A stretch of 4,864 nt of DNA from a virus. Lineage: Duplodnaviria; Heunggongvirae; Uroviricota; Caudoviricetes. The stretch's first letter is position 1. Each line of letters starts with the position of its first letter. The notes beneath the pieces are model-generated. The model made no database searches and was not told the DNA's origin. It saw only the letters and a list, made by a program, of their open reading frames with translations. Positions 1 through 4,864 of the stretch are shown piece by piece. The stretch lies in IMG/VR virus record IMGVR_UViG_2597490253_000007. One strand, given 5' to 3'. The translations under genes and the position numbers were made by a program.

Positions 1-921
1 ACCGGGCGTCCGGCCATGCTGCATATTTTCGAGCCGGTGGAGGACGGGCAGACCCGTGGGGCTAATCAGTTTTACAGCGTCATGGAACGGCTGAAGATGC
101 TCGATTCCCTGCAGGCAACACAGCTTCAGTCGGCCATAGTGAAGGCGATGTATGCAGCGACGATTGAAAGTGAACTTGATACCGAAAAGGCCTTTGAATA
201 TATCGCCGGCGCGCCACAGGAGCAGAAGGATAATCCGCTTATTAATATTCTGGAGAAGTTTTCCAGCTGGTATGACACGAATAACGTGACACTGGGCGGT
301 GTCAAAATTCCGCACCTTTTCCCTGGTGATGATCTGAAACTACAGACTGCGCAGGATTCAGACAATGGATTTTCTGCGCTTGAACAGGCGCTGCTGCGGT
401 ATATCGCCGCCGGTCTTGGCGTTTCCTACGAACAGTTGTCCCGTGATTACTCGAAGGTCAGTTACTCAAGTGCCCGCGCCTCCGCCAATGAGTCGTGGCG
501 CTATTTTATGGGGCGGCGAAAATTTATTGCGGCCCGGCTGGCCACGCAGATGTTTTCCTGCTGGCTGGAAGAGGCACTTCTTCGGGGGATTATTCGTCCG
601 CCACGGGCACGTTTTGATTTTTATCAGGCGCGATCAGCCTGGTCACGGGCAGAGTGGATTGGTGCCGGAAGAATGGCCATTGACGGGCTCAAGGAAGTCC
701 AGGAATCAGTGATGCGCATTGAGGCCGGACTGAGCACGTATGAGAAAGAGCTGGCGCTGATGGGCGAGGATTATCAGGACATTTTCCGCCAGCAGGTCAG
801 GGAATCTGCTGAGCGGCAAAAAGCCGGACTCTCACGTCCGGTGTGGATAGAGCAGGCGTATCAGCAGCAGATAGCGGAGAGTCGTAGGCCGGAAGAGGAG
901 ACAACACCACGTGAGACGTAA
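1..921 (+). CDS. B: Phage portal protein, lambda gpB-like; C-terminal part only, 5' end lies upstream of the window
   Basis: Open frame runs from position 1 (codons 1-15 ACC GGG CGT CCG GCC carry no stop) to TAA at 919-921. It sits immediately upstream of the C-D-E homologs, as in lambda. Assignment to the lambda portal family is by gene order and recollection, not a search. The ORF-track start at 16 is only the first Met in the window. Confidence 0.85.
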   Translation, partial: TGRPAMLHIFEPVEDGQTRGANQFYSVMERLKMLDSLQATQLQSAIVKAMYAATIESELDTEKAFEYIAGAPQEQKDNPLINILEKFSSWYDTNNVTLGGVKIPHLFPGDDLKLQTAQDSDNGFSALEQALLRYIAAGLGVSYEQLSRDYSKVSYSSARASANESWRYFMGRRKFIAARLATQMFSCWLEEALLRGIIRPPRARFDFYQARSAWSRAEWIGAGRMAIDGLKEVQESVMRIEAGLSTYEKELALMGEDYQDIFRQQVRESAERQKAGLSRPVWIEQAYQQQIAESRRPEEETTPRET

Positions 922-3055
922 TCTTTCACACATTATTGCCGCAGCATTCAATGAACCGCTGCTTCTGGAGCCCGCCTATGCGCGGGTTTTCTTTTGCGCG
1001 CTCGGGCGCGAGATGGGGGCAGCAAGTCTTTCGGTACCACAACAGCAGGTACAGTTTGATGCTCCCGGAATGCTGGCTGAAACGGACGAGTACATGGCCG
1101 GAGGTAAACGACCGGCCCGTGTTTACCGGGTGGTGAACGGTATTGCTGTACTGCCGGTGACCGGCACGCTGGTGCACCGGCTGGGTGGTATGCGGCCATT
1201 TTCCGGAATGACAGGCTATGACGGCATTGTCGCCTGTCTTCAGCAGGCAATGGCGGATAGCCAGGTGCGGGGCGTACTGCTGGACATTGACAGTCCGGGC
1301 GGGCAGGCCGCCGGCGCGTTTGACTGCGCTGACATGATTTACCGCCTCCGTCAGCAGAAGCCGGTCTGGGCACTGTGCAATGACACGGCCTGTTCTGCAG
1401 CCATGCTGCTGGCGTCGGCCTGCTCCCGACGGCTGGTTACCCAGACATCCCGTATCGGCTCCATTGGCGTGATGATGAGCCATGTCAGCTATGCCGGTCA
1501 TCTGGCGCAGGCCGGTGTGGATATCACGCTGATTTACTCAGGGGCGCACAAGGTGGATGGCAATCAGTTTGAAGCGTTGCCGGCAGAGGTTCGCCAGGAC
1601 ATGCAGCAGCGGATTGATGCGGCGCGCCGGATGTTTGCCGAAAAAGTGGCGATGTTTACCGGTCTGTCTGTTGATGCCGTCACGGGAACAGAGGCTGCCG
1701 TTTTTGAAGGTCAGTCCGGCATTGAGGCCGGGCTGGCGGATGAATTAATCAATGCGTCGGATGCCATCAGTGTGATGGCCACGGCGCTGAACAGTAATGT
1801 CAGAGGAGGCACTATGCCGCAATTAACTGCAACGGAAGCCGCCGCGCAGGAGAACCAGCGAGTGATGGGGATCCTGACATGCCAGGAAGCGAAAGGACGT
1901 GAACAGCTTGCCACGATGCTGGCAGGACAACAGGGCATGAGCGTTGAACAGGCCCGGGCGATTCTGGCCGCGGCGGCACCGCAGCAGCCGGTGGCATCCA
2001 CGCAGAGTGAAGCCGATCGCATTATGGTGTGTGAAGAAGCGAACGGTCGTGAACAACTGGCGGCAACGCTGGCGGCGATGCCGGAGATGACGGTGGAAAC
2101 AGCCCGCCCGATCCTGGCTGCTTCACCGCAGGCGGATGCCGGACCATCACTCCGTGATCAGATCATGGCACTGGATGAGGCAAAAGGGGCTGAGGCGCAG
2201 GCTGAACAGCTGGCTGCCTGCCCGGGAATGACAGTGGAGAGCGCCCGGGCTGTGCTGGCTTCGGGATCAGGTAAGGCAGAACCGGTCTCTGCATCCACAA
2301 CCGCCANNNNNNNNNNAGTCACGGGAACAGAGGCCGCTGTTTTTGAAGGTCAGTCCGGCATTGAGGCCGGGCTGGCGGATGAATTAATCAATGCGTCGGA
2401 TGCCATCAGTGTGATGGCCACGGCGCTGAACAGTAATGTCAGAGGAGGCACTATGCCGCAATTAACTGCAACGGAAGCCGCCGTGCAGGAGAACCAGCGA
2501 GTGATGGGGATCCTGACATGCCAGGAAGCGAAAGGACGTGAACAGCTTGCCACGATGCTGGCAGGGCAACAGGGCATGAGCGTTGAACAGGCCCGGGCGA
2601 TTCTGGCCGCGGCGGCACCGCAGCAGCCGGTGGCATCCGCGCAGAGTGAAGCCGATCGCATTATGGCGTGTGAAGAAGCGAACGGTCGTGAACAACTGGC
2701 GGCAACGCTGGCGGCGATGCCGGAGATGACGGTGGAAAAAGCCCGCCCGATCCTGGCGGCTGCACCACTGGCGGATGCCGGGCCCTCGCTTCGTGATCAG
2801 ATCATGGCCCTGGATGAGGCAAAAGGGGCAGAAGCGCAGGCTGAAAAACTGGCGGCCTGCCCGGGAATGACCGTGGAGAACGCCCGGGCTGTGCTGGCTG
2901 CGGGATCAGGTAAGGCCGAACCGGTCTCTGCATCCACAACCGCCCTGTTTGAACATTTCATGGCGAATCATTCACCGGCAGCGGTGCGGGGTGGCGTGTC
3001 ACAGACGTCAGCAGACGGTGATGCGGACGTGAAAATGCTCATGGCCATGCCATGA
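911..3055 (+). CDS. C: Prohead (head maturation) protease, lambda gpC-like, S49/ClpP-like family, with C-terminal scaffold region; as assembled 714 aa, but interrupted by an N-gap and an in-frame 213-codon duplication, so true length is uncertain (possibly about 501 aa)
   Basis: GTG start at 911 overlaps the portal stop by 11 nt, comparable to the B/C overlap in lambda, with GAAGAGGAG at 891-899 as a possible RBS. The N-terminus (RRNLSHIIAAAFNEPLLLEPAYARVFFCAL) closely matches what I recall of lambda gpC. Likely S49 serine nucleophile context is DTACSAAMLLASA, with a conserved HKVDGN segment downstream. Stop TGA at 3053-3055. The frame passes through N(10) at 2307-2316, which is why the track shows XXXX. 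Confidence 0.85.
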   Translation: MRRNLSHIIAAAFNEPLLLEPAYARVFFCALGREMGAASLSVPQQQVQFDAPGMLAETDEYMAGGKRPARVYRVVNGIAVLPVTGTLVHRLGGMRPFSGMTGYDGIVACLQQAMADSQVRGVLLDIDSPGGQAAGAFDCADMIYRLRQQKPVWALCNDTACSAAMLLASACSRRLVTQTSRIGSIGVMMSHVSYAGHLAQAGVDITLIYSGAHKVDGNQFEALPAEVRQDMQQRIDAARRMFAEKVAMFTGLSVDAVTGTEAAVFEGQSGIEAGLADELINASDAISVMATALNSNVRGGTMPQLTATEAAAQENQRVMGILTCQEAKGREQLATMLAGQQGMSVEQARAILAAAAPQQPVASTQSEADRIMVCEEANGREQLAATLAAMPEMTVETARPILAASPQADAGPSLRDQIMALDEAKGAEAQAEQLAACPGMTVESARAVLASGSGKAEPVSASTTAXXXXVTGTEAAVFEGQSGIEAGLADELINASDAISVMATALNSNVRGGTMPQLTATEAAVQENQRVMGILTCQEAKGREQLATMLAGQQGMSVEQARAILAAAAPQQPVASAQSEADRIMACEEANGREQLAATLAAMPEMTVEKARPILAAAPLADAGPSLRDQIMALDEAKGAEAQAEKLAACPGMTVENARAVLAAGSGKAEPVSASTTALFEHFMANHSPAAVRGGVSQTSADGDADVKMLMAMP
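1679..2306 (+). repeat. Direct repeat copy 1 (628 bp), ending at the N-gap
   Basis: Sequence from gtcacgggaacagagg... to ...gcatccacaaccgcca recurs at 2318-2945 with about 25 nt differences by eye (~96% identity). Confidence 0.9.
1814..3055 (+). CDS. Putative nested scaffolding protein, lambda Nu3-like, translated in-frame from an internal start within the C-like gene and co-terminal with it; length inflated by the duplication
   Basis: Strong Shine-Dalgarno AGGAGG at 1804-1809, 4 nt upstream of ATG 1814 (MPQLTATEAA...), in the same frame as C. In lambda, Nu3 is encoded in-frame within the 3' part of C and shares its stop. The downstream sequence is Ala/Glu/Gln-rich and repetitive, typical of scaffold proteins. 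An identical RBS+ATG recurs at 2443-2448 / 2453 in the second repeat copy. Confidence 0.5.
   Translation: MPQLTATEAAAQENQRVMGILTCQEAKGREQLATMLAGQQGMSVEQARAILAAAAPQQPVASTQSEADRIMVCEEANGREQLAATLAAMPEMTVETARPILAASPQADAGPSLRDQIMALDEAKGAEAQAEQLAACPGMTVESARAVLASGSGKAEPVSASTTAXXXXVTGTEAAVFEGQSGIEAGLADELINASDAISVMATALNSNVRGGTMPQLTATEAAVQENQRVMGILTCQEAKGREQLATMLAGQQGMSVEQARAILAAAAPQQPVASAQSEADRIMACEEANGREQLAATLAAMPEMTVEKARPILAAAPLADAGPSLRDQIMALDEAKGAEAQAEKLAACPGMTVENARAVLAAGSGKAEPVSASTTALFEHFMANHSPAAVRGGVSQTSADGDADVKMLMAMP
2307..2316. other. Assembly gap (10 N) inside the C/Nu3-like coding region
   Basis: Run of n characters in the sequence; the flanks are near-identical to each other. Confidence 0.98.
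2318..2945 (+). repeat. Direct repeat copy 2 (628 bp), starting right after the N-gap
   Basis: Near-identical to 1679-2306 at an offset of exactly 639 bp (213 codons), so the reading frame is preserved. Differences are a mix of synonymous and nonsynonymous changes, concentrated in the 3' two thirds. Confidence 0.9.
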
Positions 3056-3091
3056 AGTCAGTGCTGACCATCAATATGAGGTTTTAACAAA

Positions 3092-3439
3092 ATGGTGACG
3101 AAAACCATCACTGAACAGCGTGCGGAAGTACGTATTTTTGCCGGTAATGATCCGGCTCATACCGCCACAGGCAGCAGCGGGATTTCTTCTGCAACACCGG
3201 CTCTGACGCCCCTGATGCTGGATGAAGCCACCGGGAAACTGGTGGTCTGGGATGGACAGAAAGCCGGTAGTGCGGTTGGCATACTGGTACTGCCGCTTGA
3301 AGGCACAGAGACGGTGCTGACCTATTACAAGTCGGGGACCTTTGCGACGGAGGCAATCCGCTGGCCTGACAGTGTGGATGAACACAAAAAGGCAAATGCC
3401 TTTGCCGGCACAGCCCTGAGTCACGCGGCTCTGCCGTAA
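3092..3439 (+). CDS. D: Head decoration protein, lambda gpD-like (115 aa)
   Basis: ATG at 3092 with GAGG at 3078-3081 as RBS; stop TAA 3437-3439. Size is close to lambda gpD (~110 aa). Segments such as DPAHTATG, TPLMLD, WDG, AVGIL, YKSGTF and AFAGTA match my recollection of gpD. Position between C and E is as in lambda. Confidence 0.9.
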   Translation: MVTKTITEQRAEVRIFAGNDPAHTATGSSGISSATPALTPLMLDEATGKLVVWDGQKAGSAVGILVLPLEGTETVLTYYKSGTFATEAIRWPDSVDEHKKANAFAGTALSHAALP

Positions 3440-3447
3440 CACGTTAT

Positions 3448-3467
3448 CAGGCCACCATGGTGGCCTG
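3448..3467. promoter_or_regulatory. Perfect 20-bp palindrome (CAGGCCACCATGGTGGCCTG) in the D-E intergenic region; possible RNA stem-loop or dimeric protein-binding site
   Basis: Exact reverse-complement symmetry read directly from the sequence, 9 nt after the D stop and about 30 nt before the E start. It is followed by ACTGATTTCTG, which is only weakly U-rich. Confidence 0.4.
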
Positions 3468-3496
3468 ACTGATTTCTGAATGAAAGGAACTGATTT

Positions 3497-4525
3497 ATGG
3501 GATTGTTTACGACCCGCCAGTTACTCGGTTATACCGAACAAAAAGTGAAATTCCGTGCGCTGTTTCTGGAGCTGTTTTTCCGCCGTACGGTGAATTTCCA
3601 CACCGAAGAGGTGATGCTGGACAAAATTACCGGAAAAACGCCGGTGGCGGCCTATGTCTCCCCGATCGTTGAAGGAAAAGTGCTTCGCCATCGCGGTGGT
3701 GAAACCCGCGTGTTACGTCCGGGCTACGTCAAGCCGAAACACGAATTTAATTACCAGCAGGCGGTTGAGCGCCTTCCTGGTGAAGATCCGGCTCAGCTGA
3801 ACGACCCGGCCTACCGTCGTCTGCGTATCATTACCGATAACCTCAAACAGGAAGAGCACGCCATTGTCCAGGTGGAAGAAATGCAGGCGGTGAATGCCGT
3901 GCTGTATGGCAAATACACCATGGAAGGGGATCAGTTTGATACTGTCGAGGTGGATTTCGGGCGCTCTGAAGGAAATAACATTGAGCAGGCTGACGGTAAA
4001 AAATGGTCTGAGCAGGACCGTGATACGTTTGATCCGACGCATGATATTGACCTCTACTGCGATCAGGCCAGCGGCCTTGTGAATATCGCCATTATGGACG
4101 GTACGGTCTGGCGTCTGCTGAATGGCTTTAAGCTGTTCCGCGAAAAACTGGATACCCGTCGCGGCTCAAATTCACAACTCGAAACGGCAGTGAAAGATCT
4201 GGGCGCAGTGGTGTCCTTCAAGGGGTATTACGGCGATCTGGCCATTGTGGTGGCGAAAACGTCTTATGTGGCAGAGGACGGTACCGAAAAACGTTATCTG
4301 CCGGAGGGCATGCTGGTGTTGGGGAATACGGCGGCAGAGGGGATTCGTTGCTATGGTGCCATTAAGGATGCACAGGCGTTGTCTGAAGGAGTGGTGGCTT
4401 CTTCCCGTTACCCGAAACACTGGCTGACCGTGGGCGATCCGTCCTGTGAATTCACCATGACGCAGTCCGCTCCGCTGATGGTGCTGCCGGATCCGGATGA
4501 GTTTGTGGTGGTACAGGTGAAATAA
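3497..4525 (+). CDS. E: Major capsid protein, lambda gpE-like (342 aa)
   Basis: ATG at 3497 with AAGGA at 3484-3488 as RBS; stop TAA 4523-4525. Length (342 aa) is about that of lambda gpE, and many segments (YVSPIV, PGYVKPKHE, DPAYRR, VEEMQAV, KLDTRRGSNS, LETAVKDLG, MVLGNT, TMTQSAPLM, PDPDEF) match my recollection of gpE. Confidence 0.95.
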   Translation: MGLFTTRQLLGYTEQKVKFRALFLELFFRRTVNFHTEEVMLDKITGKTPVAAYVSPIVEGKVLRHRGGETRVLRPGYVKPKHEFNYQQAVERLPGEDPAQLNDPAYRRLRIITDNLKQEEHAIVQVEEMQAVNAVLYGKYTMEGDQFDTVEVDFGRSEGNNIEQADGKKWSEQDRDTFDPTHDIDLYCDQASGLVNIAIMDGTVWRLLNGFKLFREKLDTRRGSNSQLETAVKDLGAVVSFKGYYGDLAIVVAKTSYVAEDGTEKRYLPEGMLVLGNTAAEGIRCYGAIKDAQALSEGVVASSRYPKHWLTVGDPSCEFTMTQSAPLMVLPDPDEFVVVQVK

Positions 4526-4533
4526 TCCGTGAG

Positions 4534-4562
4534 CGGGGGCGAAATGCCCCCGTGTCTTTTTT
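4534..4562 (+). terminator. Putative rho-independent terminator (or partial terminator/attenuator) between E and FI
   Basis: GC-rich hairpin CGGGGGC (4534-4540), loop GAAAT, GCCCCCG (4546-4552), followed by TGTC and then TTTTTT at 4557-4562, beginning 9 nt after the E stop codon. Confidence 0.6.
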
Positions 4563-4576
4563 CACAGGAGGCTGAG

Positions 4577-4864
4577 ATGGCAACAAAAGAAGAAAATCTG
4601 AATCGTCTTCGTCAACTGGCTGACCTGCTGGGGCGCGAGGCGGATATGTCGGGGAGTGCTGCGGATATTGCTCAACGTGTGTCTGAGTGGGAAGAGGAGC
4701 TTGCTGTTTCCCCGGAGGGCATTATGCACTCTGATGAGAGCGGGGCTGATCAAAATCACACAGACGATGGTGAGCAGTTGAACAACACGGATGCTCCGGA
4801 TGATGTTAAAGCCGTCCGGGTACGGAAGTGCCTGCAAGTAATGGGGTATTGCCCGGAGACAGGT
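4577..4864 (+). CDS. FI: FI-like DNA-packaging/head assembly protein, N-terminal part (3' end beyond the window)
   Basis: ATG at 4577 preceded by AGGAGG at 4566-4571 (5-nt spacing); open for 96 codons to the window end. The N-terminus MATKEENLNRLRQLADLLGRE...AQRVSEWEEEL resembles what I recall of lambda gpFI, and the gene follows E as in lambda. Absent from the ORF track because no stop falls within the window. Confidence 0.6.
   Translation, partial: MATKEENLNRLRQLADLLGREADMSGSAADIAQRVSEWEEELAVSPEGIMHSDESGADQNHTDDGEQLNNTDAPDDVKAVRVRKCLQVMGYCPETG

What the first reader, a model, noticed from the sequence alone, without database searches (positions are those of the whole stretch)
1804..1816. 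Strong internal ribosome-binding site and in-frame ATG inside the protease gene (nested Nu3-like scaffold start)
AGGAGG at 1804-1809 followed by ATG at 1814 in the C reading frame is a stronger initiation context than most gene starts in this window. In lambda, the scaffold protein Nu3 is made from an in-frame internal start in C and is co-terminal with it; this site is a good candidate for the equivalent. The site is duplicated at 2443-2453 within the second repeat copy, which, if the duplication is real, would give two nested products of different length.
Basis: partly seen in the sequence, partly recalled or inferred. Interest (0 to 1): 0.45.

Follow-up and report, generated by a model that had tools for sequence, protein, structure and literature searches.

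The report
Known nested scaffold start; duplication is artefact
The strong internal ribosome-binding site and ATG are real and mark the already-annotated start of the phage-21 scaffold protein (gene 6, the lambda Nu3 equivalent) nested inside the head protease gene, while the "second copy" comes from two different prophages being joined across a 10-N assembly gap.

Summary
The window is a phage-21-type lambdoid prophage head module: portal, gene 5 (S49 protease, lambda C type), shp/D, major capsid and FI. AGGAGG at 1804-1809 and the in-frame ATG at 1814 are there. This is the strongest Shine-Dalgarno context of all 115 ATGs in the window. GenBank M81255 and OL657228 (phage 21) already annotate a ribosome-binding site and a nested, co-terminal 200-aa CDS (gene 6, "scaffolding protein") starting at exactly this ATG. 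It aligns with lambda's AGGAGG-N4-ATG at 5342 (C residue 309).

In 65 homologous genes the ATG is always present. An SD core precedes it in 89%, against 2.8% of other in-frame ATGs. Nearby glycines use the rare GGA codon 79% of the time, against 11% elsewhere, which points to selection on the nucleotides.

The second site (2443-2455) follows a 10-N gap (2307-2316). Window 1-2306 matches one prophage of E. coli GN06489 (99.9%). Window 2317-4864 matches another prophage 150 kb away (100%). Both gap edges fall on SNPs that separate the two prophages. Every listed phage record and complete genome holds one copy.

Verdict: the start site is real but already known, and the duplication is a scaffolding artefact. 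Interest is low.

The parts
1..921 (+). 3' part of the portal protein gene (phage 21 gene 4 / lambda B), prophage-A allele
   Evidence: ORF 16..921. Annotated portal in M81255, OL657228 and NZ_CP147608. Window 1-2306 is 99.9% identical to L004.
911..2306 (+). Gene 5 (lambda C-type S49 head maturation protease plus scaffold), GTG start, prophage-A allele, cut at gene position 1396 of 1506 by the scaffold gap
   Evidence: Annotated CDS start. Peptidase_S49 covers residues 146-293. phrog_53 head maturation protease, E=1e-227.
1804..1809 (+). Shine-Dalgarno sequence AGGAGG of the nested scaffold gene, encoded by Arg-Gly-Gly codons (AGA GGA GGC)
   Evidence: Annotated ribosome_binding_site in M81255 and OL657228. 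dG -12.0, the strongest in the window. SD core conserved in 58/65 homologues; GGA codon bias 79% vs 10.6%.
1814..2306 (+). Nested in-frame gene 6 (Nu3-equivalent scaffold), ATG at 1814-1816. Natively 200 aa and co-terminal with gene 5; here cut by the gap after 164 codons
   Evidence: CDS 'gene 6' / 'scaffolding protein' starts here in the phage 21 records. Aligns with lambda Met309 of C. The 200-aa protein is deposited as 'head-tail preconnector gp6 [Escherichia phage 21]'.
1881..2275 (+). Three 'Tri boxes' (1881-1984, 2021-2131, 2162-2275): triplicated ~35-45-aa scaffold motif (RIMxxxEAxGRExxAxxLAxxPGMTVExARxILAA), single in lambda
   Evidence: repeat_region features Tri1/Tri/Tri3 in M81255, mapped to window coordinates. 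Protein repeats shown.
2307..2316 (.). Run of 10 N: scaffold gap joining two contigs from different prophages
   Evidence: Both edges sit on A/B prophage SNPs.
2317..3055 (+). 3' 739 nt (gene positions 768-1506) of gene 5 from a second prophage (B allele). It holds the second copy of the SD (2443-2448) and ATG (2453-2455) and a complete nested gene 6 (2453-3055, 200 aa)
   Evidence: Window 2317-4864 is 100% identical (0/2548 mismatches) to L003, prophage B of NZ_CP147608, and only 92.7% identical to prophage A.
3092..3439 (+). shp / head decoration protein gene (lambda D equivalent)
3497..4525 (+). Major capsid protein gene (lambda E equivalent)
4577..4864 (+). 5' part of the FI DNA-packaging protein gene, with its own AGGAGG at 4566-4571

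Best explanation
The site at 1804-1816 is the translation start of the prohead scaffold protein of a phage-21-type prophage (phage 21 gene 6, the lambda Nu3 equivalent). Ribosomes start independently at a strong SD (AGGAGG) plus ATG placed 9 codons after the end of the S49 protease domain of gene 5. They read the same frame to the same stop codon. One stretch of DNA therefore yields a full-length protease-scaffold fusion (501 aa, from a GTG start with a weaker SD) and a 200-aa scaffold-only protein. The shared C-terminal part presumably brings the protease into the procapsid together with the scaffold. The stronger internal start presumably makes scaffold far more abundant than protease; both points are inferred by analogy with lambda C/Nu3. 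The SD is written into the protein-coding sequence as a GGA-G.. (Gly-Gly/Ala/Val) codon pair kept by selection on the nucleotides. The second copy of the site at 2443-2455 is not a second start in one gene. The window is a chimeric scaffold in which the left contig (prophage A, ending inside gene 5) and the right contig (prophage B, starting inside its own gene 5) overlap by 628 bp of homologous sequence. They were joined head-to-tail with 10 N. Each real gene has one internal start.
For: Site and frame. It is the strongest SD of 115 ATGs in the window. Prior annotation: M81255 gives an RBS plus CDS 'gene 6' starting at L001:2404, which is window 1814. OL657228 gives an RBS plus 'scaffolding protein' at the same place. 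The exact 200-aa product is in public databases under that name. Homology to lambda: VRGGTM aligns with LSGGRM, and the lambda DNA there is AGGAGGGCGAATG at 5342. Domain boundary: Peptidase_S49 ends at residue 293 and the internal Met is residue 302. Conservation: in 65 non-identical homologues from Enterobacteriaceae, Vibrio, Photobacterium, Pseudomonas, Marinobacter and others, an in-frame ATG is at the aligned position in all. An SD core with 3-11 nt spacing is present in 58/65 (89%), against 2.8% of 939 other in-frame ATGs. Mean duplex dG is -7.8 vs -2.8 kcal/mol. Gly codons in the 5 residues upstream are GGA in 67/85 cases, against 10.6% elsewhere in the same genes. Artefact: there is a 10-N run at the junction. 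The left part is 99.9% identical to prophage A and 97.0% to B. The right part is 100% identical to B and 92.7% to A, and the two lie 150 kb apart in complete genome NZ_CP147608. The base before the gap continues prophage A/phage 21 (ATG TTT), and the base after the gap continues prophage B (GCA). Contig 2 starts at the first A/B mismatch after the longest (218 nt) identical A/B run, and contig 1 ends on an A/B mismatch. All 19 near-full-length phage hits listed, the 40 best complete-genome hits and 58 evenly sampled complete-genome hits place both copies on one 628-629-nt or 1262-nt single-copy stretch. 1870 of 5426 complete E. coli genomes carry this gene, with up to 5 copies per genome. Many deposited 'S49 family peptidase, partial' fragments show that draft assemblies often break here.
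Against: There is no direct protein-level evidence for this prophage or, within the tools, for phage 21: the GenBank RBS is labelled 'putative'. The RefSeq lambda record places nu3 at 5132, not 5342. The experimentally determined lambda Nu3 N-terminus could not be retrieved from the held literature. That it is Met309 rests on my memory of UniProt P03711 and Ziegelhoffer et al. 1992. Seven of 65 homologues lack a recognisable SD core. The homologues are phylogenetically related, so the counts are not independent events. The raw reads of the source assembly were not available, so the mis-join is inferred rather than observed.
Confidence: 0.9

Rival explanations
1. The duplication is real. The strain carries an in-frame ~639-bp tandem duplication inside gene 5, giving a 714-aa protease-scaffold and two nested scaffolds (about 413 and 200 aa).
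For: The spacing of the copies in the window is 639 = 213 x 3, so the frame is kept across the gap as written. The copies differ by about 3%, so they are not a trivial copy-paste.
Against: The junction is 10 N and was never sequenced. The length of an N-run is a convention, so the in-frame spacing carries no information. The left and right halves match two different prophages of one complete genome at 99.9% and 100%. Both gap edges continue the ordinary single-copy sequence and sit on inter-prophage SNPs. No duplicated arrangement appears in any listed phage record or complete genome.
Confidence: 0.03
2. The conserved Gly-Gly/Ala-x-Met is a protein-level feature (a flexible linker or a protease cleavage site). 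Its resemblance to an SD-ATG is incidental, and no separate product is initiated here.
For: The motif lies in a linker just after the protease domain. Small residues are typical of linkers and cleavage sites. In lambda, C is itself processed (established knowledge, cited in PMC3224144).
Against: What is conserved is the nucleotide string GGAG, not the amino acids. The first Gly is GGA in 79% of cases against 10.6% background. The next residue varies among Gly, Ala, Val and Glu, all of which have G-initial codons. Met is invariant and always ATG. In lambda, genetics showed that Nu3 is a separate overlapping gene (Shaw & Murialdo 1980, cited in PMC8508860).
Confidence: 0.04
3. The nested scaffold starts elsewhere, for example at the position equivalent to the RefSeq lambda nu3 start (5132, residue 239 of C, inside the protease domain).
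For: NC_001416 annotates nu3 at 5132..5737, 201 aa, and that 201-aa protein is in the databases.
Against: The codon aligned to lambda Met239 is Ile in the phage-21-type genes (SRMDATRQ vs QRIDAARR). No other in-frame start in gene 5 has an SD better than -7.4 kcal/mol. Both phage 21 annotations choose 1814. The SD-ATG at the 5342-equivalent position is the one conserved across the family.
Confidence: 0.03

Closest known systems
Phage 21 gene 6 (nested in gene 5), GenBank M81255 / OL657228
   Same: Essentially the same gene. Window 1-2306 is 99.8% identical to M81255. The RBS and ATG sit at the same position, and the co-terminal product of 200 aa and the three Tri boxes are the same.
   Different: The only differences are a few SNPs. 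The prophage-B allele after the gap differs by about 3% in this gene, and window 2317-4864 as a whole is 93.5% identical to M81255. The window carries the assembly artefact; the phage records do not.
Bacteriophage lambda C / Nu3 (protease with nested in-frame scaffold)
   Same: The proteins are 58% identical. Both have an S49 protease domain and sit between the portal and decoration genes. The AGGAGG-N4-ATG sits at the aligned position (lambda 5342, C residue 309), the product is co-terminal, and the RIMGIL..EA.GRE..GMTV..AR.ILAA scaffold motif is shared.
   Different: The lambda nested product is 131 aa with one copy of the motif and a 36-residue insertion after the start. The phage-21 type is 200 aa with three motif copies and a longer C-terminal tail. 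Lambda C starts with ATG; gene 5 here starts with GTG. RefSeq annotates lambda nu3 at 5132.
Other nested or fused protease-scaffold arrangements in tailed phages and herpesviruses (e.g. P2 gpO, herpesvirus UL26/UL26.5)
   Same: The logic is the same: the protease carries the scaffold's C-terminal capsid-targeting part, and a shorter scaffold-only product is made from the same frame. This comparison rests on established knowledge and was not tested here.
   Different: No sequence relationship was tested. Herpesviruses use a separate promoter rather than an internal ribosome-binding site.

Membership tests
Lambda C/Nu3-type nested protease-scaffold gene | N-terminal S49 (ClpP/SppA-like) serine protease domain | tested here: met
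   PF01343 Peptidase_S49, E=1.5e-34, residues 146-293. SppA structures matched at E=4e-16. phrog_53 head maturation protease, E=1e-227.
Lambda C/Nu3-type nested protease-scaffold gene | Position in the head module between the portal gene and the decoration and major capsid genes | tested here: met
   ORF order in the window and the annotations of L001-L004.
Lambda C/Nu3-type nested protease-scaffold gene | In-frame internal SD plus ATG just downstream of the protease domain, co-terminal with the long ORF, at the position homologous to lambda's | tested here: met
   Conserved in 58/65 homologues against a 2.8% background.
Lambda C/Nu3-type nested protease-scaffold gene | C-terminal scaffold region homologous to lambda Nu3 | tested here: met
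   Alignment columns 353-400 (ENxRxMGILxCxEAxGRE...ARxILAAAPQ). phrog_8399 head scaffolding protein, E=1.6e-34.
Lambda C/Nu3-type nested protease-scaffold gene | A separate scaffold polypeptide is actually made from the internal start and is needed for prohead assembly | not testable with these tools
   This needs proteomics, ribosome profiling or genetics. For lambda it is cited as known (Ray & Murialdo 1975; Shaw & Murialdo 1980).
Phage 21 gene 6 | Near-identity to M81255 with the same start codon and RBS | tested here: met
   4 mismatches in 2306 nt. CDS start L001:2404 equals window 1814.
Genuine in-frame tandem duplication | Continuous sequence across the junction, with both copies and both flanks from one lineage | tested here: not met
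   There are 10 N at the junction. The left half is prophage A (99.9%) and the right half is prophage B (100%), 150 kb apart in a complete genome. The gap edges sit on A/B SNPs.
Genuine in-frame tandem duplication | The arrangement is seen in finished genomes or phage isolates | tested here: not met
   Both copies map to a single 628-629-nt stretch in all 58 evenly sampled full-coverage complete genomes. They also map to single-copy stretches in the 40 best hits and in all 19 near-full-length phage hits listed.

The most novel reading that the evidence does not exclude
The source strain really carries an A/B-recombinant prophage with an in-frame tandem duplication of the end of the protease domain plus the three-Tri-box scaffold region. 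This would give a 714-aa protease-scaffold with six Tri boxes and two nested scaffold proteins of different length from two identical internal start sites.
Probability: 0.02. Interest if true: 0.35.

Novelty: already known. Interest (0 to 1): 0.08.

Why it matters
It matters little as a discovery. The nested start has been annotated in phage 21 records (M81255, OL657228) and is the textbook lambda C/Nu3 arrangement. There are two practical points. First, automated annotation (PGAP: 'S49 family peptidase') omits the nested scaffold gene in thousands of E. coli prophages, and RefSeq lambda places nu3 at a non-conserved ATG. The family-wide SD-ATG conservation shown here gives a simple rule for annotating it. 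Second, the apparent duplication shows how scaffolds of multi-prophage genomes can create false in-frame gene duplications across short N-runs.

Tried and rejected
Literature: I looked for the experimentally determined N-terminus of lambda Nu3 or phage 21 gp6. The held papers only cite Ray & Murialdo 1975, Shaw & Murialdo 1980 and Medina et al. 2010. The key subscription papers (Medina 2010, Casjens & Hendrix 2015) are not held, and searches for Smith & Feiss 1993 and Ziegelhoffer 1992 found nothing. The statement that lambda Nu3 begins at Met309 therefore rests on memory plus the comparative evidence.

RNA structure around the internal start: the z-score is 0.03, so there is no special structure, and I dropped this line.

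Tandem Repeats Finder on the Tri boxes: it found nothing. The repeats are too diverged at the DNA level and are visible only as protein.

PDB sequence search: only SppA-type protease domains matched, and there is no solved scaffold part.

A real tandem duplication was considered and rejected (see rivals), as was an alternative nested start at the lambda-5132 equivalent.

I did not use structure prediction, the large protein searches or the metagenome scans, because the question was settled without them.
Full report
**What the window is.** ORF listing and database comparison show a lambdoid head-gene module. It holds the 3' part of the portal gene (to 921) and a long ORF from a GTG at 911. After that come a decoration-protein gene (3092-3439), a major capsid gene (3497-4525) and the start of FI (4577-). 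The long ORF is 98.5% identical over the aligned parts to phage 21 gene 5 (M81255, OL657228) and to many E. coli prophages annotated 'S49 family peptidase'. It carries a Peptidase_S49 domain at residues 146-293 and matches phrog_53 'head maturation protease' end to end.

**Check of the observation.** AGGAGG lies at 1804-1809 and ATG at 1814-1816, in the frame of the ORF that starts at 911 (903 nt = 301 codons downstream).
- AGGAGG-N3-9-ATG occurs three times in the window against 0.34 expected by chance. The matches are this site, its copy at 2443-2455, and the FI start at 4566-4579.
- The predicted pairing with the 16S 3' end is -12.0 kcal/mol, the strongest of all 115 ATGs in the window. The annotated gene starts score -9.1 (gene 5 GTG), -10.3 (FI), -6.8 (shp/D) and -5.9 (major capsid).

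**The site is already annotated.** In M81255 ('Bacteriophage 21 head gene operon') a 'ribosome_binding_site' and a CDS 'gene 6' start at locus position 2404. With gene 5 starting at 1501, that is window position 1814. The CDS ends at the gene 5 stop. The 2022 complete phage 21 genome OL657228 annotates the same nested CDS as 'scaffolding protein', with its RBS at the equivalent of window 1804-1808 (PMC9119081). The exact 200-aa product is in public protein collections as 'head-tail preconnector gp6 [Escherichia phage 21]'.

**Relation to lambda.** A protein alignment of the phage-21-type genes with lambda C (58% identity) places VRGG-T-M302 opposite LSGG-R-M309 of lambda C.
- The lambda DNA there reads TCAGGAGGGCGAATG, that is AGGAGG, four bases, then ATG, at lambda coordinate 5342.
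- The RefSeq lambda record instead annotates nu3 from 5132. The codon aligned to that ATG is Ile in the phage-21-type genes.
- From memory, not from a tool, UniProt P03711 and Ziegelhoffer et al. 1992 give the 131-aa product from Met309 as Nu3.
- That C and Nu3 overlap, and that Nu3 is the scaffold, is cited in held papers (Shaw & Murialdo 1980 and Ray & Murialdo 1975, through).

**Is the site more than chance? A comparative test.** A scan of one genome per bacterial species found 294 related loci, of which 80 were fetched. After removing identical sequences and incomplete ORFs, 65 genes remained. They include phage 21 and lambda, and come from Enterobacteriaceae, Vibrio, Photobacterium, Pseudomonas, Marinobacter, Zooshikella and others.
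- An in-frame ATG sits at the aligned position, about 26-32 residues after the G(L/F)AD motif that closes the protease domain, in every one.
- An SD core (GGAG, GAGG or AGGA) with 3-11 nt spacing precedes it in 58 of 65 (89%), against 2.8% of the 939 other in-frame ATGs in the same genes.
- The mean anti-SD duplex energy is -7.8 kcal/mol, against -2.8 for the other ATGs.
- The nested products are 120-154 aa in most and 191-202 aa in the phage-21 group.
- The conserved element is the nucleotide string, not the peptide. The residues read GG, GA, GV or GE, all from G-initial second codons. The glycines within five residues upstream use GGA in 67 of 85 cases, while GGA is 10.6% of glycine codons elsewhere in these genes.
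- This is the signature of selection for ribosome binding inside a coding sequence. The sequences are related, so the counts are not independent events. Even so, the pattern holds across protein identities down to about 36%.

**Mechanism.** Shown: a strong, conserved SD-ATG lies nine codons past the protease domain, in frame and co-terminal. Inferred: ribosomes start there independently, so the region yields a 501-aa protease-scaffold fusion and a 200-aa scaffold. The weaker GTG start of gene 5 against the strong ATG start of gene 6 fits the excess of scaffold over protease known for lambda (established knowledge). No particular RNA structure surrounds the site (z = 0.03).

**The 'second copy'.** The direct repeat 1679-2306 / 2318-2945 straddles ten N at 2307-2316.
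- Window 1-2306 is 99.9% identical (2 mismatches) to one prophage of the complete genome E. coli GN06489 (NZ_CP147608, around 2.89 Mb). It is only 97.0% identical to a second prophage of that genome.
- Window 2317-4864 is 100% identical (0 of 2548) to that second prophage (around 2.74 Mb, 150 kb away). It is only 92.7% identical to the first.
- The last base before the gap (A) continues the ordinary phage 21/prophage A sequence (ATG TTT GAA). The first base after the gap (A) continues the ordinary prophage B sequence (GCA GTC ACG).
- In gene coordinates, the right contig begins at position 768. That is the first A/B difference after the longest identical A/B stretch in the region (218 nt). The left contig ends at position 1396, also an A/B difference. 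This is what assembly-graph branch points look like, not a biological junction.
- In all 19 near-full-length phage hits listed, in the 40 best complete-genome hits and in 58 hits sampled evenly down the ranking, both copies map onto one single-copy stretch. The gene is 1506 nt, and the spans are 628-629 or 1262 nt.
- The gene occurs in 1870 of 5426 complete E. coli genomes, with up to five copies per genome. Many deposited 'S49 family peptidase, partial' fragments show that draft assemblies commonly break inside it.
- The 639-nt in-frame spacing depends on the arbitrary length of the N-run and carries no information.
- The duplication is therefore a scaffolding artefact, and each real gene has one internal start.

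**Comparison and novelty.** The feature belongs to the lambda C/Nu3 arrangement, and specifically to phage 21 genes 5 and 6. All testable defining features are met. Only production of the protein could not be tested. Compared with lambda, the nested product is longer because the scaffold motif is triplicated; M81255 already annotates these 'Tri boxes' as of unknown function. Nothing here is new: the site is already known and the unusual part is an artefact. Interest is low (0.08). The only novel reading left open is a real duplication, with probability about 0.02.

Noticed in passing
window 2307-2316 and flanks 1679-2945: A 10-N scaffold gap joins contigs from two different prophages of one genome, creating a false in-frame 639-nt duplication and a 714-aa chimeric ORF. 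Both gap edges sit exactly on SNPs that separate the two prophages.
   Followed up: yes
window 1881-1984, 2021-2131, 2162-2275 (and 2520-2623, 2660-2770, 2801-2914): The scaffold part holds three diverged copies of a ~35-45-aa motif (RIMxxxEAxGRE...GMTVExARxILAA), annotated 'Tri boxes, function unknown' in M81255. By a rough regex for its EAxGR core, 52 of 65 homologues (lambda included) show one hit; only the phage-21-like and Providencia genes show two or three. The effect of copy number on scaffold function is unexplored here.
   Followed up: partly
L005 833 (lambda 5132) versus L005 1043 (lambda 5342): RefSeq NC_001416 annotates nu3 from the ATG at 5132 (201 aa), which is not conserved: it is Ile in the phage-21-type genes. 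The family-wide conserved AGGAGG-ATG is at 5342 (131 aa). PGAP annotation of E. coli prophages omits the nested gene altogether.
   Followed up: partly
L016, L018-L025, L039, L040, L042, L043, L052, L059 (genome-contig hits): Lambda or lambda-like C gene sequences sit on short contigs, several with low read coverage stated in the contig name, in assemblies labelled Neobacillus, Chromatium, Kitasatospora, Shewanella, Pseudomonas, Akkermansia, Oceanobacillus, Leeuwenhoekiella, Amycolatopsis, Enterococcus and others. This is most likely lambda DNA contamination of sequencing libraries.
   Followed up: no
window 4533-4561 and 3447-3468: There are two strong intergenic hairpins. GCGGGGGCGAAATGCCCCCGT followed by a T-run lies between the major capsid stop and the FI start and looks like an intrinsic terminator. 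The perfect palindrome TCAGGCCACCATGGTGGCCTGA lies between shp/D and the capsid gene. They may act as attenuators or mRNA-stability elements that set capsid, decoration and FI ratios in the late operon.
   Followed up: no
window 911-921: Gene 5 starts with GTG and overlaps the end of the portal gene by 11 nt. This suggests translational coupling and a low initiation rate for the protease relative to the nested scaffold.
   Followed up: no
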